Virus record (IMG/VR): IMGVR_UViG_3300010362_000002
Location: 1 to 52,321 of that record
Source: a virus
Taxonomy: Duplodnaviria; Caudoviricetes
Direction: 5' to 3' (one strand)
Length of the DNA: 52,321 nucleotides
Of this stretch, positions 14,581 through 33,917 are shown piece by piece. The first letter of the stretch is position 1; every line of letters begins with the position of its first letter. The notes below the pieces were generated by a model, which ran no database searches, had not been told where the DNA came from, and worked only from the letters and a program-made list of their open reading frames with translations. Made by a program: the position numbers and the translations under genes.

Positions 14581-14942
14581 CCGGCGGCGGCTGGCCGGAA
14601 GCGCCGTCGCCGCGTTTCATCTTTCACCGGATGATGCGGCGCAGCCGCCTATGCCCCGGAGCGCACGAGTGCCCCGAGGTCTTGAACGCACAACCGCTCG
14701 CGACCGCGCAAGCAGCCGTTCCCTGCGCGGAATGTCCCGCCGAGTTACTGGGGGAATATTTGGGGTCGCCTTCCGGCCAGCGTCTGTCAGTGGTGATCGA
14801 TCTGGACTTCGCGCTCCAGTCGGGCTTCCACCTGACTCTCCATGACGTGAGCTATCGCGAGTTCCGGCTCTTGCGGATTTTGGCGGAGGAGCGGCAGAAG
14901 TTCGAGATCGAGGAGATTCGAGGGAAACGAGATGGCCAATAA
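14577..14942 (+). CDS. Tail chaperone gpT-like extension reached by -1 frameshift (gpGT)
   Basis: The -1 frame from 14577 (TTA ACC GGC GGC GGC TGG...) is open into ORF 14631-14942, just before the TMP. Confidence 0.75.
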   Translation, partial: LTGGGWPEAPSPRFIFHRMMRRSRLCPGAHECPEVLNAQPLATAQAAVPCAECPAELLGEYLGSPSGQRLSVVIDLDFALQSGFHLTLHDVSYREFRLLRILAEERQKFEIEEIRGKRDGQ

Positions 14943-18552: not shown

Positions 18553-18947
18553 TGCCGAACCACGTCCAACCCGCGAACCCGACGGTGGTGCTCCCCAATT
18601 CGCTTTCGAGCGCGTTCCAGGAAGAGCAGCGCATCGAAGCTCTACTCAATGCTTATCAGAGCGGATTCTCCACACGAGCCGCGCTCGCCATCAACCCGCG
18701 CCGGTACTGGAAGCTCACCAAGCAATTGACCGAAGCGCAGTGGACCACGCTGCGCAATTTCTATAAGGCGAATCTGGTTAACCCGTTCTGGTTTTATAAC
18801 CCGCGCGAGACTGCGCCGCCTTTCTCATATGATCCTACCGGCGGCGCATCGGCGGGCCGTTACGCGGTGGTCTTCGACGGGCAGTGGACCGAGGACATCC
18901 TGATCCCCAGGCGCAACGCCGCGTTCGGCCTGCGCGAGGTGGCCTGA
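18552..18947 (+). CDS. Distal tail protein (gpM/Dit-like)
   Basis: GTG overlapping the TMP stop; R.W.L...L..FY......PFWF.NP pattern. Confidence 0.7.
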   Translation: MPNHVQPANPTVVLPNSLSSAFQEEQRIEALLNAYQSGFSTRAALAINPRRYWKLTKQLTEAQWTTLRNFYKANLVNPFWFYNPRETAPPFSYDPTGGASAGRYAVVFDGQWTEDILIPRRNAAFGLREVA

Positions 18948-21900
18948 TGAATCTCGGCCCCATCGCGATCATCGATCCGCCGGTCATCGGCGACTTCCCC
19001 CTGCGCAGCGATTACGGCACCGGCATGGACCTGCAGCCGTCGCTTGCGATCCACGGCTTCGATCAACCGGGCCTCAAGATCGAGCAGCGCTTTGTATTAG
19101 GCGCACCCGTGCGGCGCTTCCGCGTGCGCAAGGAATACCTCTCCTGCACGGAATTAGACGACCTGCGGGCTCACTGGCAACTGGCTCAGGGGTCGCTGGC
19201 TCAGTTCAACTACAAGTACATCTACGGGCCTGGGGCGGGCTTCGAGATGGTGCTCTGCCGCTACGAGAACCCGAACATCACCTTCAATCAACTGGTCGGC
19301 ATGATCACCGGCGATCCCGGCATCACTTTGAGCGAAGTAGTGACCACCCCGGAAGTCTATACCGCCGATGAAGTCCTTTCGCGTTTTCCAAGCTCGGCCT
19401 TCAACGCGGCGCTCACGCAGCAGGTGCAGACCATCATCCCGCTCGTCACCATCCAGGACCGCAAAGGCAACCTGCCGATCTACGTATCCAACCGGCTGGT
19501 GCAGGTCAACGGCATCGCGGGCAATCCGACATTCATCCCGCGCCTGCTCACCTGGGGCGGGCTCTCGCAGACTTTGGGCGAGGCCTCCGACGGCACTACC
19601 TTCCAGTTCGGCAACGCCGACGATGCCTGGACCAAGCTCGTGAATCACAAGGACGGGAACGGGGACTTCGATTACAACCTCTTCCGCGCCTACCTGCAGT
19701 TCTCGTTGCTCCGCGTCGATCCGGCGGGCAACACGCTGGTCCATCTGTGGGCCGGTAACGTGACCGGATGGGCCATCGATCTGGGCAACGGCACCTTCAC
19801 GCTGCCGGTCTCCGATGGCGCGTACCAGTTGGGCCTGAGCTATCCGACGCGCATGGTCACGCGCACCTGCTGGAAGGTCTACAAGGGCCGCTATTGCCCG
19901 AGCACGTCGAGCCTGCCGGATTGCCCGAAGTCCTGGGAGGCCTGCAATGATCGCGGCGTCCCGCACAGTTTCGGCGGTCTGGTGGTGCTGCCGCAGAAGG
20001 TGCGCGTCAAAGACAACTCGACCGGCGTGATCGGCTTCGGGCGCTCCGTGTTCACCAGCGTCACGGTCGCGCAGGACACCGTGTATCAACGCGCGATCCA
20101 GGAAGTCTACACGGACAAATCGTTGGTGGTCACCTGCGATGTGGCCGGTGGCCGCGACGAAGGCGATTTCTATTCGGCGCTCGGCATTGTCGGCGAAGGC
20201 CCCATCGGAGGATATAACATCGATCTGGTGCGGCAGCGTCTCGACGGCCAGCCGCCGCACGATCCCAAGCATTACGGCGGATGGCGCGGCATCGTGGGGC
20301 ATGATCCTGCGCCGACACAAGATTACTTCGGCCTGGATCAGGCACCTTGGAATCCGCTGAGTCCGCCGCCCAACTCGACCTACGCGGCGGGCCTCGCTTT
20401 CGCCGAGATCCGGCGCACCGACGAGAAGGGCCTGCAGCTTTCGGATGTCGCTGATCGCGCCATGTCGGTGACCGTGATCGCGGGGATCGGCGGGTGGACT
20501 TGGACCGCGCCCGGTGCGCGGGTGTGGAAGGACGGCCTCGCGAACCCCGTCTGGGTGCTGATCAACGTATGGCTTCGTGCCAACGGCCTGCGCGTCGATC
20601 CGGCGAATGCTTCGAGCGTTCCCGTGGAAACGATGGAAGCGCTCTTCGATGTGAATCAGGCCATCGCGGCGGCGGATATCTGCGACATCAGCGTGACGAA
20701 GATCGTGGGCACGGGCTTCGAGCGGCAGTTCCCGTTTCGCGGTTCGCTCAAGGAGCGCAAACCGCTGAAGGATTGGTTGCAGGAGATCTGCAATTGCTGC
20801 CTGGGCTTCTACACCTTCGTCAACGGGAAGCTCTGGCCGGGAATCCGCATCAACTCCAGCGTGCCTGCGGGCAACGCCTTCACGCGCGACACGATCCTGT
20901 TCAAAAGCCTGCAGATCAATCCGCACACCCCGGCATTCAACTGGCTGATCGGCGAGTTCGGCGACGAGGAGTTCGATAACCAACTCAACAACGTCACGGT
21001 GTACGACATCGATTACGCGAGCTATCAGGGCAGCGCCGACTCGCCGCAGTACACGCCCAACACCATCAACTTCGTGGGGGTCTCGAATAAAAGCCAGTGC
21101 GCCAGGATCGTCACCACGCGGCTGCGCGAAGAGTTGGGCGGCACCACCCTCGCCGAACAGTTGGCCGCGCGGCGTATCCGTTTCCGCACCACCATCCTGG
21201 GCCTGCAGACCATGGTCGGCGATATCATCTCGCTCGACCACACGGACTTACCCAACGGACGCCACGAAGGCCGCGTGCGGCAATGGACGCTGAACCCGGA
21301 TTACTCCATCGACATCGAGACCACGCCGACCACCGACTCGATGTATGACCTCGACGCCGGTCCCAAACCGGATGACGTTCCGGCAGAGCCTTCGCGGCCC
21401 GAACAGCTTCCCGCGCCCAACGGCCTAGCGTGGATGCCCAACGGCCTCGCGCCCTTCGCGGGCGATCCGCTCTACACCGATCCATTGGAGCGCACCTTCG
21501 CGCTGCAGCAGGATTACAACATCACGCGCGACGGCACCTGGAACCCGGCGGTGTACATCGGTGGCGAGTTCCCCATCAACCAGTTTGTGGTGCCAGAACA
21601 GCCGCGTATCTTAGAGATGAAGTTCGGGCCACCGGGCTCGGGCTCGATCACGGGGCCGGTCACAGTCTACGCCGCGATCACCGTGCGCAACACCGACGCG
21701 GAACCGGCGACGCCCTCGAATCTCTCGGCGCTCTACGTGGACGCCACGCTGGTCAACGTGAGCATTCTGATCACGGTCGCACCGGCACCGGGCACCTGGG
21801 CGACCTACGACGTGTGGGCGGGCCTCGACCGGCGGCGCATTGCCAAACAATACACCGTTGCGGGCGACGTTCCGGCGACCGTTACTTTCACCGGGCCGGT

Positions 21901-22960
21901 CCATGACATGACGCAGGGGTTGCCATCGCAGGCCGCGCGGGCCATCGAGACGCGGGCCAAACATGTTTGGCATTCGGGCGTGGCCGGTGTGCTCGTGACC
22001 GGCGTACCGGCGGCGAATCAGATCCAGGCGAACGACTTTATCGGCTCGACGGACAACTGGGTGGGGCGCATCCTGAGCGCTCTCGCGGACCAGTCCGACG
22101 GCTCGGTGCCGTTGTGGAACTTCCAGGTCACCGCGTTCGATTCGGCGACCGGCACTCTCACGGTCACGCCGGATGCGGTGCGCGGCGCTCCAGAGGATTC
22201 CGTCGAAGAAGGCGACGTGCTGATCGTGCGCTCGACCGCGACCGCCGCCGACGCGGACTCCTACACCGATTCGATGTGGGACAACTTCGTCTCACGAAAT
22301 CAGTTCGGCTCACCCGGCCTGCGTCCCGGCGAGGAGAAGGACCGCATCGTGCGCATCCTGCGCGGCGCGGGCGCAGGCCAGTTCCGCCACATCACCGGCA
22401 ACGATGCGACGAAGATCAGCATCGCGCCCTCGTGGGATACGATACCCGATTCGTCATCCGTCCTGATCGTCGAAGACCCGGAGTGGGTGTACTTCTCGAA
22501 GTCATCGGAGCTTCACGCGGCGCGGGATGGAGTCACGCTCACCATCCGCATGCGCGTGGACAATCTGCGCGATGTGGTCGTGCTCGTGGGCGCATTCCTG
22601 GTCGATGATCAGGGGCGCTACACCGACGAGGAGTTCGCCTGCTTCCGCGAGATCTATGTATTCGGCCAGCCGCCGACCACGCGCGAGATCGGGCCGGAGC
22701 AACTCGATCCGGCGACATCGCTGCCCTGGCAGGCGCTCGCCATCGATCACAACCTGCGCGTGGATACGAGCGCAAACGATGTGTCGATCCAGTTGCCGCC
22801 GCTCTACGTTTACCAGGGCAGGCCGCTGTTGGTTTATAACGATGCGCCGAGCGGCGCATTCAATGCGTTAGTGAATGCCTACCCCGGAGAGACGCTCTCG
22901 GACGGCTCGACGATGGCGACCATCACGCCGGGTCAGATCGGCAGGTTTACCGCAGGATAG
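18947..22960 (+). CDS. Large tail tip/hub protein (apparent gpM-like + gpL-like + gpJ-like fusion)
   Basis: Cys cluster CWKVYKGRYC...DCPKSWEAC as in gpL-type proteins; GEGPI, ANPVW and VGDII motifs of gpJ/Tal-type hubs. Confidence 0.75.
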   Translation: MNLGPIAIIDPPVIGDFPLRSDYGTGMDLQPSLAIHGFDQPGLKIEQRFVLGAPVRRFRVRKEYLSCTELDDLRAHWQLAQGSLAQFNYKYIYGPGAGFEMVLCRYENPNITFNQLVGMITGDPGITLSEVVTTPEVYTADEVLSRFPSSAFNAALTQQVQTIIPLVTIQDRKGNLPIYVSNRLVQVNGIAGNPTFIPRLLTWGGLSQTLGEASDGTTFQFGNADDAWTKLVNHKDGNGDFDYNLFRAYLQFSLLRVDPAGNTLVHLWAGNVTGWAIDLGNGTFTLPVSDGAYQLGLSYPTRMVTRTCWKVYKGRYCPSTSSLPDCPKSWEACNDRGVPHSFGGLVVLPQKVRVKDNSTGVIGFGRSVFTSVTVAQDTVYQRAIQEVYTDKSLVVTCDVAGGRDEGDFYSALGIVGEGPIGGYNIDLVRQRLDGQPPHDPKHYGGWRGIVGHDPAPTQDYFGLDQAPWNPLSPPPNSTYAAGLAFAEIRRTDEKGLQLSDVADRAMSVTVIAGIGGWTWTAPGARVWKDGLANPVWVLINVWLRANGLRVDPANASSVPVETMEALFDVNQAIAAADICDISVTKIVGTGFERQFPFRGSLKERKPLKDWLQEICNCCLGFYTFVNGKLWPGIRINSSVPAGNAFTRDTILFKSLQINPHTPAFNWLIGEFGDEEFDNQLNNVTVYDIDYASYQGSADSPQYTPNTINFVGVSNKSQCARIVTTRLREELGGTTLAEQLAARRIRFRTTILGLQTMVGDIISLDHTDLPNGRHEGRVRQWTLNPDYSIDIETTPTTDSMYDLDAGPKPDDVPAEPSRPEQLPAPNGLAWMPNGLAPFAGDPLYTDPLERTFALQQDYNITRDGTWNPAVYIGGEFPINQFVVPEQPRILEMKFGPPGSGSITGPVTVYAAITVRNTDAEPATPSNLSALYVDATLVNVSILITVAPAPGTWATYDVWAGLDRRRIAKQYTVAGDVPATVTFTGPVHDMTQGLPSQAARAIETRAKHVWHSGVAGVLVTGVPAANQIQANDFIGSTDNWVGRILSALADQSDGSVPLWNFQVTAFDSATGTLTVTPDAVRGAPEDSVEEGDVLIVRSTATAADADSYTDSMWDNFVSRNQFGSPGLRPGEEKDRIVRILRGAGAGQFRHITGNDATKISIAPSWDTIPDSSSVLIVEDPEWVYFSKSSELHAARDGVTLTIRMRVDNLRDVVVLVGAFLVDDQGRYTDEEFACFREIYVFGQPPTTREIGPEQLDPATSLPWQALAIDHNLRVDTSANDVSIQLPPLYVYQGRPLLVYNDAPSGAFNALVNAYPGETLSDGSTMATITPGQIGRFTAG

Positions 22961-22964
22961 CGAT

Positions 22965-23054
22965 ATGGAAATTGGAGAGGTTGTCGTTTTGGGGGTCGCT
23001 ACGATCATCGTGCTTCTGGTGATTTATTGGCTGTTGTTGACGCGTCAGAAATAA
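22965..23054 (+). CDS. 29-aa single-TM peptide MEIGEVVVLGVATIIVLLVIYWLLLTRQK (not in ORF track)
   Basis: Exactly fills the gap between two tail genes; AGGA SD. Confidence 0.6.
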   Translation: MEIGEVVVLGVATIIVLLVIYWLLLTRQK

Positions 23055-23057
23055 GAT

Positions 23058-26000
23058 ATGCCGGTCGGAAACTGGATCTTCGAAATCACAAGCAGCGTGC
23101 CCGGTGGGGGCCAGCCCTACGTTCCGCCGGATGCGCCGCCGGTCACCATCGGGACCGCCGAAGTCGAAGAGATCTACAGCGGCGTCTTCGAAGTGCGCGT
23201 GAACTGGACCAAGAACGCAGCCGCGACCGCGTCCAACTTTACGGGCGTGGGCGTCTTCCTCGAAGATCCCGACATGAGCGAGACCGCGCTCGCGCCGATG
23301 GACGACACCGTCACGATGGACGACACCACGCAGATGGCGGGCAAGTGGATACCGGAGCACGTCACCGACACGGCGGAATCCCCGGCCACCTTCCGCATTG
23401 CTGGCAAGACCATCGAGAGGAAAATTCGCGCATACCTGCAGGCCTACAACAAGGTCGTCAGTTCGCAGATCACGCGGGCCAACGCGCCGAATCCGACGCC
23501 GAATATTCAAGTGACCATTCCAGCGGCGCGGGATTCCTACCAGAGCGGGCAGGAATACACGTGGCTGGTGACCAATCCAACCGTAGACGTGGTTGAGGAC
23601 TTCGACAACCCAAACGGCCCCAAGTACCAACTGCATTACGGATACACGCCGCCCGACGATACGATTCCCCTGCCTCCCGGCCTGACTACGTTCGGTGGCG
23701 TGCAGATCGTTTTCGAGTACCCCGACGACAACAACCGCCGCGCGAGCGAGCGCTTCCTCGCGGTGAATCATCCCGAAACCTGGGTGTCGGAGATCTACGA
23801 CGCGCAGACGCAAACGTTCAACGTCTACTTCTGCTCGGTGGATATCAACGGGCGCTCCAACACGCCGGTGCGCGGCGTCACGCCGATGGTCGAGGTCTCG
23901 ATCAAGTATCCGCCTGACGGCCAGCAGACGGTGCCGCCGGTCACCGGCTTCACGCTCACGAATCCGCGCCACGAGTGGCAACCTGACGGCACGCTGTGGG
24001 CGACCGTCACCGCGAACTGGACCAACCCGGACGTGGTCCGCTTCGGTGCGGTCGAGTTCTGGCGTGTGGGCGTGGTGCCGCCCCGCAAGTTCGACCGTAG
24101 CTCCGTCTCACCGCTGCCGCTGCGCGTGATCGATTGGCCCACCTCTCCTGAGGCCTGGACTGTAGCGGCGATCTCGGTGGGCCGCGACGGGAAGCTCGCC
24201 GACGATCCCAACAATCTCAGCGCGGCGACGCCGACGGCGATCTGGAATATCGGACCTCCGGGCACAGGCGGGCAGGGCCACGAGTACACACCGCAGGTCA
24301 CGATCAGCGGCGCGACGGTCGATACCACGCAGCAGTTGAATAGCGATGGCGTGGTGATGATGTCCCACACCATCAAAGGCTGGATCAATTCCACGGACAA
24401 CAGCTTCGGCGGCGTCTCAATTGCCCGTGTGGTGAAAGACCAAGACCCCAATGGGGCGACCACGAACGTTCAGTGGTGGGACGCGCCTAAGAATGCGACA
24501 TCGATCATCACCGATTGGGAGCCTGCGCCAGCAGCGGTTTCCTGGGACTTCTATTTTGTCGCGCGAGATCAGCAAGGGAAGCGCAACACGATTGTGATGG
24601 GCTATCCGGCAGCGGGCACAACGCCGAAGGTCACGGTGAACTTTACGCCGATGGCGGGCGATGTACTGGCTTCCCGCTTACCGAAAGACTGGTTCAGTGA
24701 AGACGAGTTTAGCTGGCCATCTGCTCCAGGCGACGACAAGTTCAAAGTGGACAAAGTCATCTCGGCCAAAATTTATGTCGGCTCGATCCTGCGGGTTGGC
24801 GGCGGCACGACGCCGGATACGGGAACGCCCGATAAGCCCGGTTATGTACCGGGAACCAACCCAAGTTTTGGAAATAGCCAGAATGGACAGATCGCCGTCT
24901 ACAATTCCTCCAACGTGTTGCGGGCCTGGATGGGTGAGCAGAACAATCAGGGGACACCCGATATTCCGAGCCCGCATCCGGTCTTCGGTGGTTGGTTCGC
25001 GGAGTTGTATGTCGGCGGCGACAATCCGACGAATGCGCCGCTGTACGCCACGCAAGCTGGCGTGGTGATTGTCGGCGGCTTCGACGTACAAGGATCGCGC
25101 TACCCCTACATCTCGATCCGCAATAAGTCTGGCATCGAGGTGGGCCGCATGGGTGCGCGGGTCGGCCAGGGGCAAGTCGGCAACGAGAGCACCATCGAGG
25201 GTGCTTGGTTCCGTGAATTTGCCTACGGCGGGCAGTCGTTTGCCGACTGGCGGATGCTGGCTCGCATGGACCCATCCAATCCGCAAGGCTCGACCGTAGA
25301 GATGCGGAACATTTCCAAGTTCCAGATCGATTACATGGCCAACTATCCGAGCGCCACGAATCCGACCAACGCGGCCATGACACTGCTTTTTGGCTACGAC
25401 GCCTTCGTCGCGGACGTAGCGACCTCCACCTACTACAAGTTCCCCGGCATCTCGATGACGCGCACCGGCACTGGGCACCAGTGCATTCTGATCAATCGGG
25501 GCATTGTGCTGAACATGCCGAGCGGCACGATCACTTCGCCGGTGAGGGCGGGCGCGTTCGTGACCTACAACGGCCAGCAGACCGGCAACGATGCGGGCAC
25601 CTTCTGGACGGTGCTCTCGATGAACTCCCCGACCACGCACAACGCCAATGTGGAGTTGGCGAGCGGCAGAGATGGCGGCGTAGGCGGCTCGCACTTCACT
25701 CTGTGGGACGGCAGCCTCACGCCGGTAGTCAACTTCAACGTGGACGAAACCGGCAACGTCACCGTTCGGGGTTCGTTCACGCTGAATTCCGACATGATCG
25801 CGACGCAGTATTCCGTGAAGGGCTCTCCGAATATTCCAGTGATCACTACCGGAGGCCAATTCAACGGCTCTGGCGGCGTGAATACTACCGGCGCGATCAG
25901 TTCCAGCAGCACGGTGACCGGCTCGGCGATCTGGGCCAATGGCAGAAATGTGATCAACTCTTCCTGGCAGTTCGTCGGCGACGGCGGCGTCGATAGCGCG

Positions 26001-26297
26001 GGCGGGATCACCGGCGCGTCGTTGTCCATTCGAGGCCATTCGCAGGCGATGATCACCAGTGCGGGTGCCTACTACGATGGCACCGGCGTGCAGGTTATCA
26101 CTTTTGACGGGCAGTTCTGCGGCAAAGGCGGAATCTATACGAATGGCCAGATCGATACCGGAGGAACGGCGTCGATAGGCGCGGGCGGGGGCTTCAGGGC
26201 TTACGGGAGTACCGGGGTCACTGGGCCGACTACTTTCACTACAGCGGATGGCAAGACCGTCACCGTGCGCGGGGGCATTATTATTTCGGTGGTTTAA
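23058..26297 (+). CDS. Tail fibre/spike protein
   Basis: Ig/FN3-like N-terminal part, Gly-rich VI..xGQFxGxGG repeats, C-terminal TTFTTADGKTVTVRGGII. Confidence 0.75.
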   Translation: MPVGNWIFEITSSVPGGGQPYVPPDAPPVTIGTAEVEEIYSGVFEVRVNWTKNAAATASNFTGVGVFLEDPDMSETALAPMDDTVTMDDTTQMAGKWIPEHVTDTAESPATFRIAGKTIERKIRAYLQAYNKVVSSQITRANAPNPTPNIQVTIPAARDSYQSGQEYTWLVTNPTVDVVEDFDNPNGPKYQLHYGYTPPDDTIPLPPGLTTFGGVQIVFEYPDDNNRRASERFLAVNHPETWVSEIYDAQTQTFNVYFCSVDINGRSNTPVRGVTPMVEVSIKYPPDGQQTVPPVTGFTLTNPRHEWQPDGTLWATVTANWTNPDVVRFGAVEFWRVGVVPPRKFDRSSVSPLPLRVIDWPTSPEAWTVAAISVGRDGKLADDPNNLSAATPTAIWNIGPPGTGGQGHEYTPQVTISGATVDTTQQLNSDGVVMMSHTIKGWINSTDNSFGGVSIARVVKDQDPNGATTNVQWWDAPKNATSIITDWEPAPAAVSWDFYFVARDQQGKRNTIVMGYPAAGTTPKVTVNFTPMAGDVLASRLPKDWFSEDEFSWPSAPGDDKFKVDKVISAKIYVGSILRVGGGTTPDTGTPDKPGYVPGTNPSFGNSQNGQIAVYNSSNVLRAWMGEQNNQGTPDIPSPHPVFGGWFAELYVGGDNPTNAPLYATQAGVVIVGGFDVQGSRYPYISIRNKSGIEVGRMGARVGQGQVGNESTIEGAWFREFAYGGQSFADWRMLARMDPSNPQGSTVEMRNISKFQIDYMANYPSATNPTNAAMTLLFGYDAFVADVATSTYYKFPGISMTRTGTGHQCILINRGIVLNMPSGTITSPVRAGAFVTYNGQQTGNDAGTFWTVLSMNSPTTHNANVELASGRDGGVGGSHFTLWDGSLTPVVNFNVDETGNVTVRGSFTLNSDMIATQYSVKGSPNIPVITTGGQFNGSGGVNTTGAISSSSTVTGSAIWANGRNVINSSWQFVGDGGVDSAGGITGASLSIRGHSQAMITSAGAYYDGTGVQVITFDGQFCGKGGIYTNGQIDTGGTASIGAGGGFRAYGSTGVTGPTTFTTADGKTVTVRGGIIISVV

Positions 26298-26629: not shown

Positions 26630-26718
26630 AGGCGATGCTGGAGGCCATCATCTTTTTGCTCTTAGGTGTGGGTGTTGGAATCGCAATTTCGCACTTGTAT
26701 AGAACCCGTAGGAGGTAA
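26626..26718 (+). CDS. 30-aa single-TM peptide MKAMLEAIIFLLLGVGVGIAISHLYRTRRR (not in ORF track)
   Basis: ATGA overlap with the previous stop; fills the gap to the next gene; basic C-terminus. Confidence 0.6.
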   Translation: MKAMLEAIIFLLLGVGVGIAISHLYRTRRR

Positions 26719-26724
26719 CTAAGC

Positions 26725-29634
26725 ATGGCTGGTCCCTGGCTATCCAGAACGGATTATCAACCGACCGACCGCGTGAAGTCCCAGATGTTCAATAATCTGG
26801 CGCTCGATGACCGGACGTGGGGCGGCGATGTCAACGGCGGCGGCTTCAAATTATCGAACGTGATCCTCGATGGCTCGGGCGGATTCACCAGCCAGCTTTC
26901 GCCGCTCGTGATGACGCCCGGAGCGGACGGGTCCAGCCGCATCGAACTGGATCAAGGCGCGGCTCCCAACAACAAGGCACGCTGGAACGTCGGCAAGGAC
27001 GCGGCTGCGGAGACCGGCGCGAACGCGGGCTCCAACTTCCAGATCGTGCGCTATGCCGACGACGGCACTACCGTGCTCGGCACGCCTTTCGCCGTCAATC
27101 GCGCGACCGGCGTGATCACAATGGGCGCTCAGAAATGGACCGGCGCTGTCGATGGCAACGGACAGACCTTGAGCAATGTCACCATCACCGGCTACGCAAC
27201 CAATCCGATGACGACAAAGGGCGACATCATCATCGGCGGCACCAGCGGCGTGCCTGCCCGGTTGGGTGGCAGCGGCACCGATGGTTGGGTGCTGACTTAC
27301 GATCTGGCCGGTGGCGCTCCTAAGTGGGCCGCTCCTCCCGCGACCGGCGTACCGACTTCGCGGGCCATCAATACTCCTGCCGGTAGTGGGCTTTCAGGTG
27401 GCGGCACCCTCGCGGCAGACCTTACGCTGCAGGGTGTCATCTTCGGAGCTTCCGGCGCACCTCATGCGAAAGGTATGGTGCCCGATCCCGGCGCGACGGC
27501 GGGCGCTACTCGCTTCCTGCGCGAAGATGCGACCTGGGGCGTGCCGACGGGCACCGGTGGCGGCATGAGTAACCCGATGACTGCTGCAGGTGATCTCATC
27601 GTTGGCAGCACAGCCGGTGCGCCGACTAATCTGGCCATCGGCACAAACGGGCAAGTGCTCACCGTCGATACGACAGTCACGCCGATCAAGCTGAAATGGG
27701 CCGCAGGCGCGGGCGGGCTCGATGTGCGCGTCAACTCCACCAGCTACGGCATCGCGAGCATCCTCAACTTGATTGCCGGAACGAACGTCACGCTCGGCGC
27801 ATCCAGCAGCGCGGGCGCGACGAACGTAACCTTCAATGCGGCGGGCGGCGGTGCGGGCAGTCAGACGCCGTGGACTTCCGATATCGACGGGGCGGGATTT
27901 ACGCTGAAGAATGCGGGGAAGATCCTGATTGGCACGAGCACCTTTTCTGTCAGTACCGGACAGATGCAAGTTGCGGGTGGCGCAGTGGAATCGTCTACGC
28001 GATGGACGAATACCGCGTCACCTAGTGGTGTTGCCGTTGGCGTTACTGCCACTAGCAGCAATGCGTTTTTGTGGAACTATGAGAACGGCCCGCTGCACCT
28101 AGCGACTAACAATCTGACTCGCCTGTACATCACGGCGGCGGGGAACGTGGGCATCGGCACAACGAATCCGCAAGGCAGCTTAGATGTTCGAGGCAGCGGC
28201 CCCGCTCAATTTCACGACACTGCAACCGGGCCGGTCTGTTACGTCTCGATAAGCGAATCCAGCACCATTAACAATATTCAATGGTGGAAAGATTCAACAC
28301 CTACGGTAGCGGCGAGTATCGGCCTCAGTTCGCCATCGACCGCCCTTGGCGGCAATATTGTTTTTGCGACGTTCAACGGGTCTGCGTGGACGGATCGCAT
28401 GATCGTGCTCAATAGTAATGGCAACGTGGGCATCGGGACGACGAATCCCCTAAATCTTGTTCAGGTACACGCTGGTACGGATGCCAACGTAGGCATACGT
28501 CTGGACTCCCAAACGGGCAATTCTGTCGGCTTCGGAGCCTACAACGATGCTGGCAGCAATGTTGTGCCGCTAGGCTTCAATGCGAGTAAGTTTATTTTTA
28601 TGAACGGATCGGTGGGCATCGGGACGACGAGCCCAGGCTCACGCTTGGCGGTAATATCAACGGCCAGCATCGACGGCGTGACTATCAGTTCTTTTGATCG
28701 TGCCAGCATCTGGATGAATGTAACAAATACCAGTAACTATAACTGGCTGCTGCAATCCGCTGTCAGTGCAAACAACGACTTTCAGATTCTCGCTTCATCA
28801 GCACCGGGAGGCGCAGCGAGCAACGCTGTCGTGACGTTGCGCAGTACAGGCAGCGTGGGCATCGGGACGACGAGTCCGGCTGACATGCTGGCGCTGGCTC
28901 CGGTAGCGTTTGCCGGGAGTGTGAACGGCGGCATACGGATGCAGAGCACAGGAGGCGAATGGGTCTACCGGCTGGCCATGAAGAGTACATCCGGTGGCAA
29001 TACCTATTTCGCTATTGATAGTGCGATCAACGCATCGGGTGGCGTGACGGAAGCGATCAGAATTGCAGGCGCTACTGTGGCCATTGCGAAGAATGCCATG
29101 CCTGCTTATCCGCTCGATGTGACCGGCGACATCAACTGTACCGGCGCGTTCCGGGTCAACGGCGTGGCGATCGCGGCGGGCGGCATCGTGGTGCAAGCGG
29201 GCGGAACTGCAGTAGGTACCTCTACGCCAAGGCCGATTCTAAATTTCACTTCTGGGGGATCATCCAATCCCGCTTGCACGGAGGACGGGCCGAACAACAG
29301 ATATAACGTCACATTCAACTTCAGTTCAGACGTGCGATTGAAGCGGAATGTGGCGGATCTTCAAGGCGGGCTGTCGGTGATCGAGCAACTTCGACCTGTA
29401 GCGTTCGAATATAACGGCGCGGGCGGATTTGCAGAAGGTAAGCGCTCAGTGGCAATCATCGCGCAGGAACTGCAGCAGGTGATGCCGGATTGCGTGTACT
29501 CCGTGCGGCAGCGGCTGTACCCGGAAGCGGAAGAAACAGACCTGCTCTGCTATGAGCCTACGCACATACTGTTTCACTTAGTACTTGCGGTGAAGCAACT
29601 GCATCGGCAACTTTCAGAACTGAGGAGGAACTAA
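26725..29634 (+). CDS. Tail fibre with GxVGIGT repeats and C-terminal peptidase S74 intramolecular chaperone
   Basis: TTKGD/TAAGDL repeats, four G(N/S)VGIGTT repeats, SSDVRLKRN...LRPV.F.Y...IIAQE. Confidence 0.88.
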   Translation: MAGPWLSRTDYQPTDRVKSQMFNNLALDDRTWGGDVNGGGFKLSNVILDGSGGFTSQLSPLVMTPGADGSSRIELDQGAAPNNKARWNVGKDAAAETGANAGSNFQIVRYADDGTTVLGTPFAVNRATGVITMGAQKWTGAVDGNGQTLSNVTITGYATNPMTTKGDIIIGGTSGVPARLGGSGTDGWVLTYDLAGGAPKWAAPPATGVPTSRAINTPAGSGLSGGGTLAADLTLQGVIFGASGAPHAKGMVPDPGATAGATRFLREDATWGVPTGTGGGMSNPMTAAGDLIVGSTAGAPTNLAIGTNGQVLTVDTTVTPIKLKWAAGAGGLDVRVNSTSYGIASILNLIAGTNVTLGASSSAGATNVTFNAAGGGAGSQTPWTSDIDGAGFTLKNAGKILIGTSTFSVSTGQMQVAGGAVESSTRWTNTASPSGVAVGVTATSSNAFLWNYENGPLHLATNNLTRLYITAAGNVGIGTTNPQGSLDVRGSGPAQFHDTATGPVCYVSISESSTINNIQWWKDSTPTVAASIGLSSPSTALGGNIVFATFNGSAWTDRMIVLNSNGNVGIGTTNPLNLVQVHAGTDANVGIRLDSQTGNSVGFGAYNDAGSNVVPLGFNASKFIFMNGSVGIGTTSPGSRLAVISTASIDGVTISSFDRASIWMNVTNTSNYNWLLQSAVSANNDFQILASSAPGGAASNAVVTLRSTGSVGIGTTSPADMLALAPVAFAGSVNGGIRMQSTGGEWVYRLAMKSTSGGNTYFAIDSAINASGGVTEAIRIAGATVAIAKNAMPAYPLDVTGDINCTGAFRVNGVAIAAGGIVVQAGGTAVGTSTPRPILNFTSGGSSNPACTEDGPNNRYNVTFNFSSDVRLKRNVADLQGGLSVIEQLRPVAFEYNGAGGFAEGKRSVAIIAQELQQVMPDCVYSVRQRLYPEAEETDLLCYEPTHILFHLVLAVKQLHRQLSELRRN
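28147..28873 (+). repeat. Dispersed 19-bp direct repeats GTGGGCATCGGGACGACGA inside the tail fibre gene
   Basis: Exact at 28426, 28612, 28855; variant GTGGGCATCGGcACaACGA at 28147. Confidence 0.9.
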
Positions 29635-29635
29635 T

Positions 29636-29944
29636 ATGACTTACGAAGAATCAGCCGCACTAATGAACGACTTTACTTTTCGCGGGCGAATCAAAGTCGC
29701 CTCAGTGAAGTATTCAGACGCCGTGGGCATCCAAACAACTCCGGTATCGCAACGTGCGGCATTGGTGAAGTGGTCGTTCCGTTGTGCTCAACAGCCGGAT
29801 CAGGTTGCAGCAGAGTTGCAACCTTTTGTCGTCGAGGATGCGGCAATCCAGGACGCGGGCGTGGACGCAGAAGGGAAATCCCTCGCCACCGATACTGCAC
29901 TGCAGGCCGCAGTAGAGGCGACGGTCAATAAGCAAAATTCCTAA
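29636..29944 (+). CDS. Hypothetical protein (possible tail fibre accessory)
   Basis: GAGGAGG SD; coupled to the fibre gene. Confidence 0.7.
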   Translation: MTYEESAALMNDFTFRGRIKVASVKYSDAVGIQTTPVSQRAALVKWSFRCAQQPDQVAAELQPFVVEDAAIQDAGVDAEGKSLATDTALQAAVEATVNKQNS

Positions 29945-31470: not shown

Positions 31471-31665
31471 ATGTCCAGCACAGAGGGTACGTGTGTGTCC
31501 AGAAACCCGGTCGAGTTGGCGGTGCGCTCTTTTGCCACCGGAGGCGGTTGGCGCTGCGATAGCTGCCACACCTTCCCCGGCACCCGCTTGTTCGATAGCT
31601 TGTGGCTCTGCGTCGTCTGCTACTTCCGCTACCGCGAGCACCCGGAAATGGAGCGCTGGCGATGA
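31471..31665 (+). CDS. Small Cys-containing hypothetical protein
   Basis: CDSC...CVVC; ATGA-coupled to the exonuclease. Confidence 0.5.
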   Translation: MSSTEGTCVSRNPVELAVRSFATGGGWRCDSCHTFPGTRLFDSLWLCVVCYFRYREHPEMERWR

Positions 31666-32651
31666 TTGACCATGCCATTCGGGACACCGGCCTGGGCGGA
31701 TCGGAGATCGGCGCTCTGTTTAACGCGCATCCCTTTCTCGATGAGTTTTCGGTCGCCATGCGCAAGCGCTCGACCGAGCGGATCTACCGCCCCGGCCCGA
31801 ACGACCGGCAGCGCTTCGGCAAGGCCATCGAGCCGACCACCATCGCGCTCTACGAGTACATGACCGGCAAGCGTGTCGAGCGCTGCGATAATACCCGGCG
31901 GCATCCCGAACGCCCCTGGCAGATCGCCACGCCCGACGCCTTCCGCGCCGGTGAGAAGCGCGGAATCGAACTCAAGTGCTGCTTCCCCGATCAGCGCGGT
32001 AACTGGGGCCACACCATCGACGAAGCGCCTGAATACGCGGTGATGCAGTGTTGGTGGTACGAGAGCATCTTCGACATGGACGTGTGGGAACTCGTGGTGA
32101 TGATCCTCGGCGAACCCCTGCCGCGCATCATCGAAGTGCATCGCGACCTGGAGCGCGAGCGCGTGATGATCGACTACGCCGCGCAATGGTGGCGCAAGTT
32201 CGGCCCCGAGGGCCGTGAGCTTCCGCCAATCTCGGGATCGCAGGCGAGCGCCGAATGGCTCAAGCGGATGTTCCCGAGGAACAAATACGCGATCCGCCGC
32301 GCGGAGGATGCCGAGGTCGAGAAGCTCGAAGCCTACACCCAGGTGCGCATCGAAGAAACCCGCGTGGCCGCCAGGAAGGCGCTGCTCGAAAACGAAATCA
32401 AGTTGGCCATCCGCGACGACGACGGGCTCTTCTGGGAGGGCGGCAAGTTTACTTACAAGCGGATCAGAGATAGCAAGAAGACCGACTGGAAGGCGCTCGC
32501 CGAGATGCTCATGTTCACCATGCCGACCGAGGAGCGCGAGGCCAAGACCGCCGCGTTCACCGTGCCGGTCGAAGGCTACCGGCGCGTCCACTTCACGGCG
32601 GATGCGTTCGCCGAGGCGAAGGCGGAACTGAAGGACCAGGAGGCCGCATGA
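31662..32651 (+). CDS. YqaJ / lambda-exonuclease family recombination nuclease
   Basis: GLGGSEIGAL, FGKAIEP, ATPD, GIELKC, QCWWY. Confidence 0.88.
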   Translation: MIDHAIRDTGLGGSEIGALFNAHPFLDEFSVAMRKRSTERIYRPGPNDRQRFGKAIEPTTIALYEYMTGKRVERCDNTRRHPERPWQIATPDAFRAGEKRGIELKCCFPDQRGNWGHTIDEAPEYAVMQCWWYESIFDMDVWELVVMILGEPLPRIIEVHRDLERERVMIDYAAQWWRKFGPEGRELPPISGSQASAEWLKRMFPRNKYAIRRAEDAEVEKLEAYTQVRIEETRVAARKALLENEIKLAIRDDDGLFWEGGKFTYKRIRDSKKTDWKALAEMLMFTMPTEEREAKTAAFTVPVEGYRRVHFTADAFAEAKAELKDQEAA

Positions 32652-32923
32652 CCGAAGCTTTGATCCAGGATCTCGCTGGTGCGATGAATCGCATCGCGAA
32701 GTTGATGGACGAGGCCAAAGCCGCGCAGAAGCGCATGTTCTTCCTACTCGCGCAGGTCGGCGAACAGAGCATCTGCCGGGGGCCGAACTGCAAGGCCGCC
32801 GTGGTGCTGGTCCGCCACCGGAACGGCGCGATGGGGATCTACGAACCCGACGGCACCTACCATTTCGGAACGTGCCCAGACCGTGAATTGTTTAGGAGGA
32901 GCAAAGCCCATGGCAACAAATGA
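32648..32923 (+). CDS. Small Zn-binding hypothetical protein
   Basis: CRGPNC...HFGTCP; coupled on both sides. Confidence 0.65.
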   Translation: MTEALIQDLAGAMNRIAKLMDEAKAAQKRMFFLLAQVGEQSICRGPNCKAAVVLVRHRNGAMGIYEPDGTYHFGTCPDRELFRRSKAHGNK

Positions 32924-33917
32924 AGAGATCGCACGCCGCGCGGAGACCGGCAAAGTGGCCGTGCGACAGGATCTCGGCGAAGAGATCCAGGTCGGCAGCG
33001 AGACTGCCGTGGCGGCTGCGGCTGCGGCAGCGGCGAAGGCCGAAATCGAGGCCAAGATCCTGCAGGCCAAGAAGTGGCCGCGCGATATTGATGTCTTCCG
33101 CGAGAACATCCTCAAGGACTGCCGCCGACCGGGGTTCGCGGAAAGCGCATGGTATCGCAAGCCGGTGGGCCGCAAAAAGAACCCGACCACTGGGGAATGG
33201 GAGCAGGCCTACGCCGAGAATTTCTCCGTGCGCTTCATCGAGGCGGCCCTGGTGCATTTCCAGAATGTGCATATCGTGGCGCGTATCATCCGCGAAGATG
33301 TTCACTCCACCCAACTCGCGGTCGGTGTCGGCGATGTGCAGAACAACGTCTCCTACCTGATCGAGTCCACCATCGAGAAACTGGTTGAGCGGAAGGAAAT
33401 GAAGGCGGGCCGCACAGTGATCGGCACGCGTGAAAACTCCTACGGCGATACGGTGTTTCTGCTCCCGGCGACAAAGGACGAAGCCCGGAATTTGATCGGT
33501 GCCGAGCGCTCGAAGCTAATCCGCGATCAGGGCCAACGGCTGTTACCGAGCGACATACTGGCCGAAGCGCGTGCGCTGATCCTGCAGACCAACCAGAGCG
33601 AAACAGCGAAAGACCCGGATCTCGCGAAAAAGAAGGTGCTCGATAAGTTCGCCGGTCTCGGCATCTCGGCGGCGATGCTCAAAGAATATTTGGGGAAGCC
33701 GTTGGAGCAACTCACGGTCAAGGATCTCGAAGATCTCACGCCGGTCTACCAGGGCCTCAAGGATGGTGAGTTCACCTGGGCGCAACTTATCAAGGTCAAC
33801 GAAGAGCCAGCCGAAGGAGCGCCACCGGAACAGCCGAAGAAAAAATCGTCGGCGCACGAAAAGGTGATGGCGAAGCAGGGCTTACTCGTGGAGGAGCAGG
33901 AAAAACCACAGAAATAA
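32910..33917 (+). CDS. Probable single-strand annealing protein partnering YqaJ
   Basis: AGGAGG SD; AKKWPRD, SVRFIEAA; function inferred from position next to the exonuclease. Confidence 0.5.
   Translation: MATNEEIARRAETGKVAVRQDLGEEIQVGSETAVAAAAAAAAKAEIEAKILQAKKWPRDIDVFRENILKDCRRPGFAESAWYRKPVGRKKNPTTGEWEQAYAENFSVRFIEAALVHFQNVHIVARIIREDVHSTQLAVGVGDVQNNVSYLIESTIEKLVERKEMKAGRTVIGTRENSYGDTVFLLPATKDEARNLIGAERSKLIRDQGQRLLPSDILAEARALILQTNQSETAKDPDLAKKKVLDKFAGLGISAAMLKEYLGKPLEQLTVKDLEDLTPVYQGLKDGEFTWAQLIKVNEEPAEGAPPEQPKKKSSAHEKVMAKQGLLVEEQEKPQK

What the first reader, a model, noticed from the sequence alone, without database searches (positions are those of the whole stretch)
28141..28880. Tail fibre built from divergent cassettes joined by exact 19-bp repeats: candidate recombinational host-range shuffling
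Seen: GTGGGCATCGGGACGACGA is exact three times, including all wobble positions, with a fourth variant. The cassettes between them (periods 279, 186 and 243 bp, all in frame) are unrelated to each other and richer in A/T-ending codons than the rest of the gene. Amino-acid constraint alone (VGIGTT) would not fix synonymous sites. Known: Red-like exonuclease/annealing systems recombine short homologies, and this phage encodes YqaJ plus a probable annealing protein. Inference: an in-frame, direct-repeat cassette array allowing gain, loss and exchange of binding modules without an invertase or DGR.
Basis: partly seen in the sequence, partly recalled or inferred. Interest (0 to 1): 0.7.

Follow-up and report, generated by a model that had tools for sequence, protein, structure and literature searches.

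The report
Tail-fibre cassettes joined by identical linkers
A soil phage's tail-fibre gene is a string of unrelated modules joined by a short linker that is spelled identically each time, which looks like the footprint of ordinary recombination at conserved motifs that lets such fibres swap, gain and lose modules.

Summary
GTGGGCATCGGGACGACGA is exact three times, at 28426, 28612 and 28855. A variant with 2 mismatches lies at 28147. All four are in frame in one 969-aa tail-fibre gene (26725-29634) that ends in a Peptidase_S74 chaperone domain.

The 19-mer encodes VGIGTT. This aligns to the "capping loop" that bounds trimeric beta-helix segments in the solved Bdellovibrio fibre Bd3182.

Codon bias does not explain the identity. 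The probability is 3-6e-5 under the phage's own codon usage and about 1e-3 under the family's position-specific usage.

The pattern is not peculiar to this phage. In 52 unrelated fibre ORFs, linkers within one gene share 3.3 of 5 codons, against 1.8 between genes. The excess covers about 27 nt and vanishes at conserved residues a few codons further on.

Cassette interiors are unrelated to each other but recur in other fibres in other contexts. Many mosaic breakpoints, a clean one-cassette indel and the boundary of the 80-98 % shared C-terminal module all lie at linkers.

Best reading: short-homology recombination or gene conversion at linkers, as at the T-even gp37/gp38 motifs. Ongoing shuffling and dependence on the YqaJ-type exonuclease are untested. 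The scan noted analogous identical linkers on other DNA (e1-3436586, e1-3275178).

The parts
26725..29634 (+). Tail-fibre gene, 969 aa (P0001)
   Evidence: ORF. PHROG tail-fibre families phrog_9942 4.7e-17, phrog_18345 3.9e-12, phrog_5481 5.1e-10. Pfam Peptidase_S74.
26725..27912 (+). N-terminal conserved part (aa 1-396), shared with P0002, P0003, P0004, P0005, P0007 and P0009. GC3 is 0.74.
   Evidence: Alignment A1; GC3.
27913..27939 (+). Degenerate first linker (AGKILIGTS). It follows the SQTPW..DIDGAGF junction motif, and similarity to N-terminal relatives ends here.
28141..28170 (+). Linker 1 (GNVGIGTTNP). The variant 19-mer lies at 28147-28165 and uses GGC ACA in place of GGG ACG.
   Evidence: It aligns to the Bd3182 capping loop.
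28171..28413 (+). Cassette 1 interior (aa 483-563), GC3 0.58
   Evidence: jackhmmer finds 36 units in other fibres and none of the window's other cassettes. tblastn hit in L180/L181.
28420..28449 (+). Linker 2 (GNVGIGTTNP), exact 19-mer at 28426-28444
28450..28599 (+). Cassette 2 interior (aa 576-625), GC3 0.50
   Evidence: 26 related units. In P0006/L247 a related cassette (45 % aa identity over the aligned aa 548-650) sits directly after the first linker.
28606..28635 (+). Linker 3 (GSVGIGTTSP), exact 19-mer at 28612-28630
28636..28842 (+). Cassette 3 interior (aa 638-706), GC3 0.58
   Evidence: 15 related units. 57 % aa identity to a cassette in L189; similarity starts and stops at the two linkers.
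28849..28878 (+). Linker 4 (GSVGIGTTSP), exact 19-mer at 28855-28873
28879..29064 (+). Cassette 4 interior (aa 719-780)
29065..29118 (+). Degenerate last linker (AGATVAIAKNAMPAYPLDV). It marks the boundary of the shared C-terminal module.
   Evidence: Nucleotide identity to L246 and L247 rises from 0.2-0.5 to 0.7-0.98 across this point. Protein breakpoints lie 9-11 columns away.
29095..29634 (+). C-terminal module (aa 791-969): fibre tip plus S74 intramolecular chaperone (Pfam match aa 868-924 = nt 29326-29496; S-D-V-R-L-K at aa 868-873)
   Evidence: Pfam 2.9e-12, 47.1 bits against a cut-off of 22. 85 % aa identity to L246 and L247, whose N-termini differ.
31602..32651 (+). YqaJ / RecE-like exonuclease. 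This is context only; no link to the fibre is shown.
   Evidence: Pfam YqaJ 6.9e-10; phrog_434 2.4e-42.

Best explanation
The gene encodes an S74-type trimeric beta-helix tail fibre. It is built as a conserved N-terminal part, then a stack of sequence-unrelated cassettes, then a conserved tip-plus-chaperone module.

Each cassette is framed by the peptide G-(N/S)-V-G-I-G-T-T-x-P. This is the counterpart of the 'capping loop' that closes beta-helix segments in the solved fibre Bd3182. The amino-acid motif is kept for structural reasons.

The identical spelling of the motif, about 19-27 nt, is best explained as a footprint of recombination. The linkers are the only homology shared by otherwise unrelated cassettes. 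Short-homology recombination, template switching or gene conversion between them therefore does two things: (i) it homogenises the linkers within a gene, and (ii) it makes in-frame joints at which cassettes are swapped between fibres, deleted or inserted.

Shown here: the linker identity exceeds what codon usage predicts; the within-gene homogenisation is localised; it occurs generally in this class of fibre; cassettes have linker-bounded homologues in other genes; a cassette indel between two close relatives ends at linkers; and the shared C-terminal module has its DNA boundary at the last linker.

Inferred, not shown: the molecular pathway (phage RecE-like/annealing system, host RecA or replication slippage); that events still occur in this phage; and that the cassettes bind receptors.
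For: (1) Identity beyond codon bias: P = 2.6-6.1e-5 under the phage's own codon usage and 1.2e-3 under family position-specific usage.

(2) General within-gene homogenisation, first data set. In 31 non-redundant related genes with 70 VGIGT motifs, and with the window left out, within-gene pairs share 2.78 of 5 codons against 2.34 after permutation (16 of 5000 permutations reach this). Identical 15-mers are 14 % against 4.8 % (20 of 5000). Pseudo-motifs drawn from each gene's own codon usage give 1.90 of 5 and 0.7 %.

(3) Second data set, chosen without regard to wobble bases (147 loci from a degenerate scan). The 266 within-ORF pairs from 52 ORFs whose 120-nt flanks do not align share 3.28 of 5 codons, and 22.6 % are identical 15-mers. 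Own-usage pseudo-motifs give 1.84 and 0.8 %; GC3-matched pairs between ORFs give 1.83 and 0.8 %.

(4) Internal control. The excess of 'same codon given same residue' runs from about codon -3 to +6 (0.54-0.77 against 0.33-0.55). It is absent at the conserved P(+7) 0.42 vs 0.37, L(+11) 0.30 vs 0.30 and V(+13) 0.36 vs 0.42.

(5) The homologue of cassette 3 in L189 is bounded exactly by two linkers. Those linkers differ from the window's at wobble bases (2 of 5 and 3 of 6 codons the same), whereas the window's own linkers are identical.

(6) Of 30 identity breakpoints in 13 hand-picked pairs of relatives, 13 lie within 11 columns of a regex-defined linker. P0065 and P0071 are about 91 % identical either side of a 74-aa indel that is exactly one cassette plus one linker.

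(7) Nucleotide identity to L246 and L247 jumps to 0.7-0.98 just after the last linker.

(8) Distal GC3 of 0.50-0.63 against 0.74-0.86 upstream fits imported DNA.

(9) Structural role of the motif: phmmer aligns linker 1 to 8ojn_C (E 5.3e-4). Caulton et al. 2024, PMC10769870, section 11 read in full and matched passages of section 10 read, describe it as a capping loop.
Against: No event was seen in this phage. The only run is probably the source sample, is held as contigs, and shows no deletion or duplication joint of this phage.

There are no relatives closer than about 40 % full-length identity, so no recent swap can be dated.

Linker 1 has drifted at two wobble bases.

Identity does not fall with distance between linkers (Spearman -0.08, p = 0.12). 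This gives no support to a slippage-type, neighbour-limited process.

17 of 30 breakpoints were not within 11 columns of a regex-defined linker. The pairs were picked by me and are not independent, and no formal null was computed. The rough expectation is about a quarter, from one linker per about 89 aa.

Part of the identity comes from a family-wide preference (second Gly GGG 47 % against a 17 % background; Thr ACG 59 % against 39 %). The cause of that preference is unknown and need not be recombination.

Nineteen identical bases is short for efficient homologous recombination (from general knowledge, not tested here).
Confidence: 0.62

Rival explanations
1. Codon-level selection on the linker itself. 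Each host favours one particular spelling of the capping-loop codons, for instance a pause at a rare GGR glycine codon that helps co-translational folding or trimer registration. All linkers of a gene would then converge without any recombination.
For: There is a position-specific preference in all GC classes. The first Gly is GGY and the second is GGR, for example GGT 95 of 146 against GGA 66 of 146 at low GC, and GGG 30 of 55 at medium GC. GGG is 47 % at the second Gly against a 17 % gene background. Homogeneity does not depend on distance.
Against: It does not explain why cassette homology, indels and the shared C-terminal module end at linkers. The Val codon differs between genes of similar GC3 (GTG in the window, GTC in L174) while being uniform within each. 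Other conserved residues of the same loop (P+7, L+11) show no within-gene excess.
Confidence: 0.15
2. Chance on top of a family-wide preferred spelling. GGCATCGGGACGACG is simply the modal DNA form in GC-rich phages, and three copies coincide.
For: The exact 19-mer occurs in 22 other viral contigs, always in the VGIGTT frame. 7 of 17 VGIGTT instances in relatives carry GGCATCGGGACGACG. The finding was picked post hoc from many windows.
Against: Even with the family's position-specific frequencies, P is about 1.2e-3. The within-gene excess is reproduced in two independent sets, with 0 of 3000 to 20 of 5000 permutations reaching it. Triple identity recurs in 1 of 14 related and 7 of 37 unrelated ORFs that have at least 3 VGIGT motifs.
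Confidence: 0.08
3. A dedicated, phage-programmed shuffling device. The repeats would be kept identical by selection for evolvability, and the phage's YqaJ/RecE-like exonuclease with a partner annealing protein would catalyse frequent cassette gain, loss and exchange.
For: A RecE-like exonuclease is encoded 2 kb downstream. The linker wobble bases are all G or C inside A/T-richer cassettes. All linker-to-linker products would be in frame.
Against: No event was observed. The annealing protein is unverified, since phrog_3657 has no known function. The same signature occurs in many fibres of unrelated contigs whose recombination genes were not examined. Homogenisation is an expected passive by-product of any recombination at the only shared homology.
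Confidence: 0.1

Closest known systems
Recombination at short conserved motifs in T-even long-tail-fibre genes: gp37 'His boxes' and gp38 glycine-rich motifs (GRMs) separating hypervariable segments. Sources: Trojet et al. 2011, PMC3157838, passages read; Tetart et al. 1996 and 1998, seen only as citations there, content otherwise recalled.
   Same: Short conserved glycine-rich peptide motifs are reiterated within one adhesin or fibre gene and frame unrelated variable segments. Crossovers inside the motifs, without extended homology, give host-range recombinants; quotes this for RB5 x RB32. Duplication of a small domain between repeated motifs is the recalled content of Tetart 1996.
   Different: The protein family and fold differ: an S74 trimeric beta-helix fibre, with no gp37 or gp38 Pfam match. 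The modules are whole 50-80-residue cassettes, not loops of 10-30 residues. No experiment exists for this motif. The localised within-gene codon homogenisation measured here was not found in print.
Mosaic adhesive trimer (MAT) fibres of Bdellovibrio bacteriovorus and S74 phage fibres: Bd3182 tip, PDB 8OJN; phage T5 pb1 and K1F endosialidase. Source: Caulton et al. 2024, PMC10769870, section 11 read in full and matched passages of other sections read.
   Same: The window's fibre has a C-terminal S74 chaperone. Linker 1 and its flanks align to the Bd3182 chain across the first capping loop. The paper describes intertwined trimeric beta-helix segments whose edges are closed by two loops of this motif, bounding a 30 x 15 A cleft, and calls the family mosaic.
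   Different: The paper treats the motif as a protein feature and says nothing about DNA identity or recombination in the passages found (the two matches for 'recombination' in the text are methods). The window's cassette interiors have no detectable similarity to Bd3182 beyond the linker region. Supplementary Fig. 18, the loop alignment, was not seen.
Collagen-like or other simple repeats flanking variable regions of receptor-binding proteins in Streptococcus thermophilus phages (recalled; no paper read here)
   Same: Conserved repeats flanking a variable host-specificity segment are proposed as recombination sites.
   Different: The repeat type and protein differ. This is recalled only.

Membership tests
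Peptidase_S74 (intramolecular chaperone) tail fibres and tailspikes | C-terminal S74 domain above Pfam's gathering score | tested here: met
   PF13884, E 2.9e-12, 47.1 bits against a cut-off of 22, aa 868-924, profile positions 1-57 of 58.
Peptidase_S74 (intramolecular chaperone) tail fibres and tailspikes | Autocleavage serine with a lysine five residues on (S-D-x-x-x-K) | tested here: met
   S-D-V-R-L-K at aa 868-873. S868 is invariant in alignment A1. The role of the Ser/Lys pair is taken from the S782A result in PMC10769870 and from recall for K1F. Cleavage itself is not testable here.
Beta-helix fibres with capping loops (MAT/S74 type, Caulton 2024) | Repeated loop motif V-G-(x)-G/N-pi-x-x-P-x-x-x-L | tested here: met
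   Four full copies (VGIGTTNPQGSL, VGIGTTNPLNLV, VGIGTTSPGSRL, VGIGTTSPADML) and two degenerate ones. phmmer aligns linker 1 to the Bd3182 loop region, E 5.3e-4.
Beta-helix fibres with capping loops (MAT/S74 type, Caulton 2024) | Intertwined trimeric beta-helix fold of the segments between loops | tested here: inconclusive
   The AlphaFold2 monomer of aa 455-870 is all-beta but has mean pLDDT 58.5 and pTM 0.34, too poor for a fold search. No trimer model was made.
T-even gp37/gp38 motif-mediated shuffling | Homology to gp37 or gp38 (His boxes, GRMs) | tested here: not met
   The only Pfam match of the protein at E up to 0.1 is Peptidase_S74. It works like this system but is not a member.
T-even gp37/gp38 motif-mediated shuffling | Recombinants with crossovers inside the motif | tested here: inconclusive
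   Comparative evidence only: linker-bounded cassette homology, a one-cassette indel and a DNA boundary at the last linker. No cross or junction read was obtained.
Diversity-generating retroelement | Reverse transcriptase plus template and variable repeat pair | tested here: not met
   No reverse-transcriptase family in the 44 ORFs scanned: 43 of the 48 ORFs of at least 100 aa, one 106-aa ORF not on that list, and the fibre. No long imperfect repeat in the gene.
Invertase shufflon (Cin/Gin/Min type) | Site-specific recombinase and inverted crossover sites | tested here: not met
   All four repeats are direct and lie on one strand. No recombinase or integrase family in the scanned ORFs.

The most novel reading that the evidence does not exclude
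The capping-loop linker may be a shared 'assembly standard' across a very large pool of S74-type fibres. Its roughly 27-nt spelling would be kept uniform within each gene, and to a degree within each community, by a self-reinforcing cycle of short-homology recombination. Any cassette could then be moved, dropped or added in frame. Selection for this evolvability, possibly helped by phage RecE/annealing systems, would maintain the identity. The odd GGY/GGR asymmetry of the two glycine codons would then be a relic of this molecular drive and not of translation.
Probability: 0.2. Interest if true: 0.75.

Novelty: new member of a known kind. Interest (0 to 1): 0.45.

Why it matters
Tail fibres decide which bacteria a phage can infect. 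It is textbook that they are mosaics, but the junctions are known in molecular detail only for a few model phages.

Here one short motif with a known structural role (capping loop) is also the DNA junction of a very widespread class of fibres in uncultured phages. It carries a measurable and localised signature of concerted evolution.

This gives a simple sequence test for where modules begin and end in metagenomic fibres. It gives a handle for cataloguing cassette libraries. It also marks natural in-frame seams that could guide module swaps in laboratory phage work.

For this particular phage the finding is an ordinary example of that process, not a new mechanism.

Tried and rejected
(1) Close relatives. 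A peptide-pattern scan of viral contigs with P0001 found nothing. blastn against 50,697 GenBank phage records found no match. The best full-length proteins among 5.8 billion are 38-40 % identical. The test 'same cassettes, same order, drifting wobble' could therefore only be made on distant relatives.

(2) Reads. One run (X1) was found, probably the source sample, and it is held as contigs. One contig of 14,819 nt covers 26700-29427 with 0 differences. The four 'joints' listed have sides of 27-33 nt and come from other contigs that merely share linker 4 and the C-terminal region. They are not deletions of this phage. Contigs drop rare variants, so this says nothing about rare junctions.

(3) Structure. 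The AlphaFold2 monomer of aa 455-870, built with a 42-row alignment, gave mean pLDDT 58.5. No fold search was run on it.

(4) Clustering. Single-linkage clustering of cassette interiors at E < 1e-6 lumped 275 units into one cluster. I set this aside as chaining through long or mis-split units, because profile-profile comparison of the four cassette families gave probabilities of at most 1 %. A shared fold remains possible.

(5) Recent tandem duplication as the cause of identical linkers was rejected. Pairs with non-alignable flanks show the same excess as pairs with alignable flanks: 3.28 against 3.47 codons of 5.

(6) Gene-wide codon reuse was rejected by the P(+7), L(+11) and V(+13) control.

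(7) Distance dependence of linker identity was not found.

(8) Assembly chimeras at the repeat are unlikely, because 19 identical bases is shorter than the usual assembly word lengths (my knowledge). A second assembly of the same run agrees.

(9) Literature. Searches for the peptide motif and for 'concerted evolution' + 'tail fiber' + 'gene conversion' + 'repeats' + 'phage' found nothing relevant.

(10) Earlier scan notes. There are none on this genome. Two analogous notes exist on other genomes.
Full report
**What is there**

The window is a complete virus record of 52,321 bp with direct terminal repeats.

ORF 26725-29634 (+) encodes a 969-aa protein, P0001. It matches PHROG tail-fibre families, with phrog_9942 at 4.7e-17. 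It ends in a Peptidase_S74 intramolecular-chaperone domain at aa 868-924 (E 2.9e-12, 47.1 bits against a cut-off of 22).

The 19-mer GTGGGCATCGGGACGACGA is exact at 28426, 28612 and 28855. A variant with two mismatches lies at 28147. Nothing else in the genome matches at up to 3 mismatches, and 0 of 100 shuffles gave a match. Spacings are 279, 186 and 243 nt.

All four copies read V-G-I-G-T-T inside G-(N/S)-V-G-I-G-T-T-(N/S)-P. Two degenerate copies of the same peptide motif flank the array: AGKILIGTS at 27913-27939 and AGATVAIAKNAMPAYPLDV at 29065-29118.

**Is it more than codon bias?**

Yes. With this phage's codon usage, three VGIGTT copies agreeing at all six codons has probability 2.6e-5 to 6.1e-5. 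GGG is a minor glycine codon here, at 12-19 %.

A fairer null uses the codons that related fibres actually use at each motif position. In 30 related genes the second Gly is GGG in 47 %, against a 17 % gene background. The Thr is ACG in 59 %, against 39 %. Even so, at least 3 of 4 copies identical has probability 1.2e-3.

The flanks of the linkers are 22-35 % identical, which is random.

The cassettes have GC3 of 0.50-0.62. The N-terminal part of the gene has 0.74 and seven other genes of the structural region have 0.75-0.86. All six linker wobble bases are G or C.

**What the motif is**

A sequence search of the PDB with aa 379-870 gave one hit, 8ojn_C (E 5.3e-4). It aligns ...GNVGIGTTNPQGSLDV... 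with ...GRVGVGTTAPTSALHV....

8OJN is cited in Caulton et al. 2024 (PMC10769870). One search gives its molecule name only as 'cell wall surface anchor family protein'. That it is the Bd3182 tip is inferred from the paper's description of the Bd3182 632-782 crystal structure.

I read section 11 in full and matched passages of section 10. The Bd3182 tip is an intertwined trimeric beta-helix. Two loops of identical structure, carrying this motif, cap the helix edges and bound a 30 x 15 A surface cleft. The motif is found in other such fibres.

So the amino-acid conservation has a structural reason. Each 'cassette' is most likely one capped beta-helix segment. This last step is inference: my monomer AlphaFold2 model of aa 455-870 was all-beta but too poor to use (mean pLDDT 58.5).

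**Are the cassettes unrelated?**

At sequence level, yes.

- Iterated jackhmmer with each interior against 608 units cut from 120 homologues found 36, 26, 15 and 95 related units in other fibres. It never found another cassette of the window.
- Profile-profile hhalign gave probabilities of 0.2-1.0 % for all six pairs.

A single-linkage clustering that lumped 275 units is best read as chaining. A common fold is not excluded.

**Relatives**

No close relative exists in the collections searched. The best full-length proteins are 38-40 % identical.

Alignment A1 shows the architecture:
- The N-terminus is conserved up to about aa 405 in P0002, P0003, P0004, P0005, P0007 and P0009.
- The C-terminus is conserved from about aa 795 in P0003, P0006 and P0010.
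- Between them lie different numbers of different cassettes, each framed by the linker.

**The same signature elsewhere**

I built two data sets.

*(a) Relatives.* These are 72 viral loci found through N-terminal peptide patterns, hence blind to the linker DNA.
- They yield 31 non-redundant genes with GC3 of at least 0.6 and 70 VGIGT motifs.
- With the window excluded, within-gene pairs share 2.78 of 5 codons against 2.34 after permuting motifs among genes (16 of 5000 permutations reach it).
- Identical 15-mers are 14 % against 4.8 % (20 of 5000).
- Pseudo-motifs drawn from each gene's own codons give 1.90 and 0.7 %.
- L174, the relative with the highest N-terminal identity among these loci (58 % best-segment identity), has three linkers sharing 25 identical bases, spelled GTC where the window has GTG.

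- They yield 127 ORFs and 272 motifs.
- Within GC3 strata the within-ORF excess is large: for example 3.56 against 1.94 codons of 5, with 0 of 3000 permutations reaching it.
- I then restricted to 266 pairs from 52 ORFs whose 120-nt flanks do not align better than the 90th percentile of unrelated flanks. Identity is 3.28 of 5 and 22.6 % are identical 15-mers.
- Own-usage pseudo-motifs give 1.84 and 0.8 %. GC3-matched pairs between ORFs give 1.83 and 0.8 %.

Triple identity like the window's occurs in 1 of 14 related ORFs and 7 of 37 broad-set ORFs that have at least three VGIGT motifs.

**Localisation**

I used 410 within-ORF pairs and 6000 between-ORF pairs and scored 'same codon given same residue' by codon offset.
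- It is raised from about -3 to +6 (0.54-0.77 against 0.33-0.55).
- It returns to baseline at the conserved P(+7) 0.42 vs 0.37, L(+11) 0.30 vs 0.30 and V(+13) 0.36 vs 0.42.

This internal control rules out gene-wide codon habits. It defines a homogenised tract of roughly 27 nt.

Identity does not decline with distance between linkers (Spearman -0.08, p = 0.12).

**Evidence that linkers are junctions**

(i) Cassette 3 has a homologue with 57 % aa identity in L189. Similarity begins at the upstream linker and ends at the downstream one, and both neighbouring cassettes differ. The L189 linkers differ from the window's at wobble bases (2 of 5 and 3 of 6 codons the same), while the window's own linkers are identical. 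Linkers of one gene being closer to each other than to the linkers of the homologous cassette elsewhere is the mark of concerted evolution. This is a single example.

(ii) In 13 pairs of relatives that I picked, 13 of 30 identity breakpoints lie within 11 alignment columns of a regex-defined linker.
- By eye, several others sit at linker variants that the regex missed, or at a second junction motif, SQTPW..(D/N)I(D/N)GAGF.
- The pairs are not independent and no formal null was run. The rough expectation is about a quarter.

(iii) P0065 and P0071 are about 91 % identical on either side of a 74-residue indel. The indel is exactly one cassette plus one linker. This is the product expected from linker-to-linker recombination.

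(iv) Two metagenome contigs, L246 and L247, encode fibres with a different N-terminus. They match the window's C-terminal module at 85 % aa identity. Nucleotide identity rises from 0.2-0.5 to 0.7-0.98 just after the last, degenerate linker.

(v) In the one run that holds the phage, other contigs share 27-33 nt around linker 4 and parts of the C-terminal module. Potential partners therefore co-occur. This is context, not proof.

**Mechanism**

The best explanation is short-homology recombination or gene conversion at the linkers. They are the only homology between otherwise unrelated cassettes. This process both homogenises the linkers and creates in-frame swaps, deletions and insertions. My confidence is about 0.6.

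The following are not shown:
- The pathway.
- Current activity in this phage. The run holds only contigs, and they show no joint of this phage.
- Any role of the YqaJ/RecE-like exonuclease at 31602-32651 (Pfam 6.9e-10; phrog_434 2.4e-42).
- That the neighbouring ORF is an annealing protein. It matches phrog_3657, of unknown function.

Rivals:
- Host-specific codon selection on the loop (0.15). It is helped by the unexplained GGY/GGR asymmetry of the two glycines in all GC classes.
- Chance on a modal spelling (0.08).
- A dedicated recombinase-driven device (0.1).

A DGR or an invertase shufflon is excluded as far as tested. No such family matched in the 44 ORFs scanned: 43 of the 48 ORFs of at least 100 aa listed, one 106-aa ORF not on that list, and the fibre. 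The repeats are direct.

**Comparison with what is known**

Functionally this is the process described for T-even fibres. Conserved glycine-rich motifs or His boxes, reiterated within gp38 or gp37, frame variable segments and serve as crossover points without extended homology. In Trojet et al. 2011 (PMC3157838, passages read), 14 recombinant phages from the RB5 x RB32 and RB5 x RB33 crosses are reported, all confirmed by DNA sequencing. Tetart 1996 and 1998 were seen only as citations, and their content is recalled.

The window's protein is not a member of those families; its only Pfam match is S74. Structurally it belongs with S74 and MAT-type beta-helix fibres.

I found nothing in print on DNA-level homogenisation of this linker. 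Supplementary Fig. 18 of Caulton et al. was not seen.

The scan has noted nucleotide-identical linkers between modules in two other phage genomes. I did not test those.

**Verdict**

This is a new member of a known kind. It adds a general and quantifiable signature of localised concerted evolution at the capping-loop linker. That signature may be worth a study of its own.

Noticed in passing
window 28147-28873; loci L027-L245: The two glycine codons of V-G-I-G-T differ consistently in all GC classes. The first is GGY (GGT 95 of 146 at low GC; GGC 72 % at high GC). The second is GGR (GGA 66 of 146; GGG 30 of 55 at medium GC; GGG 47 % against a 17 % background at high GC). The cause is unknown.
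   Followed up: partly
window 27859-27912 (GSQTPWTSDIDGAGFTLKN); L248 ORF 2-2938: A second conserved junction motif, SQTPW..(D/N)I(D/N)GAGF.L.N, precedes the first linker. It marks mosaic breakpoints in several pairs of relatives. It occurs twice inside one fibre gene in L248, which also begins with collagen-like G-x-y repeats.
   Followed up: partly
window 27859-29634 versus 26725-27858: The distal 60 % of the fibre gene has GC3 of 0.50-0.63. The N-terminal part has 0.74 and seven other genes of the structural region have 0.75-0.86. This fits foreign origin of the distal modules.
   Followed up: partly
window 29298-29652: In run X1 the assembly breaks here, and several variant contigs 85-95 % alike cover the S74 region. 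The sample therefore holds several phages with related C-terminal modules.
   Followed up: no
window 14932-26297: Three very large ORFs of 1206, 1358 and 1079 aa lie upstream of the fibre. None has a Pfam match, and the only PHROG match is a weak tape-measure hit for the first (1.3e-4).
   Followed up: no
window 32883-33917: The 344-aa ORF beside the RecE-like exonuclease matches phrog_3657 (unknown function, 2.8e-38) and no known annealing-protein family in Pfam. By position it is a candidate for an undescribed single-strand annealing protein.
   Followed up: no
L174 ORF 3408-6110: The relative with the highest N-terminal identity among the viral loci (58 % best-segment identity) has three linkers sharing 25 identical bases and a fourth with one change. 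They are spelled with GTC for Val where the window has GTG.
   Followed up: partly
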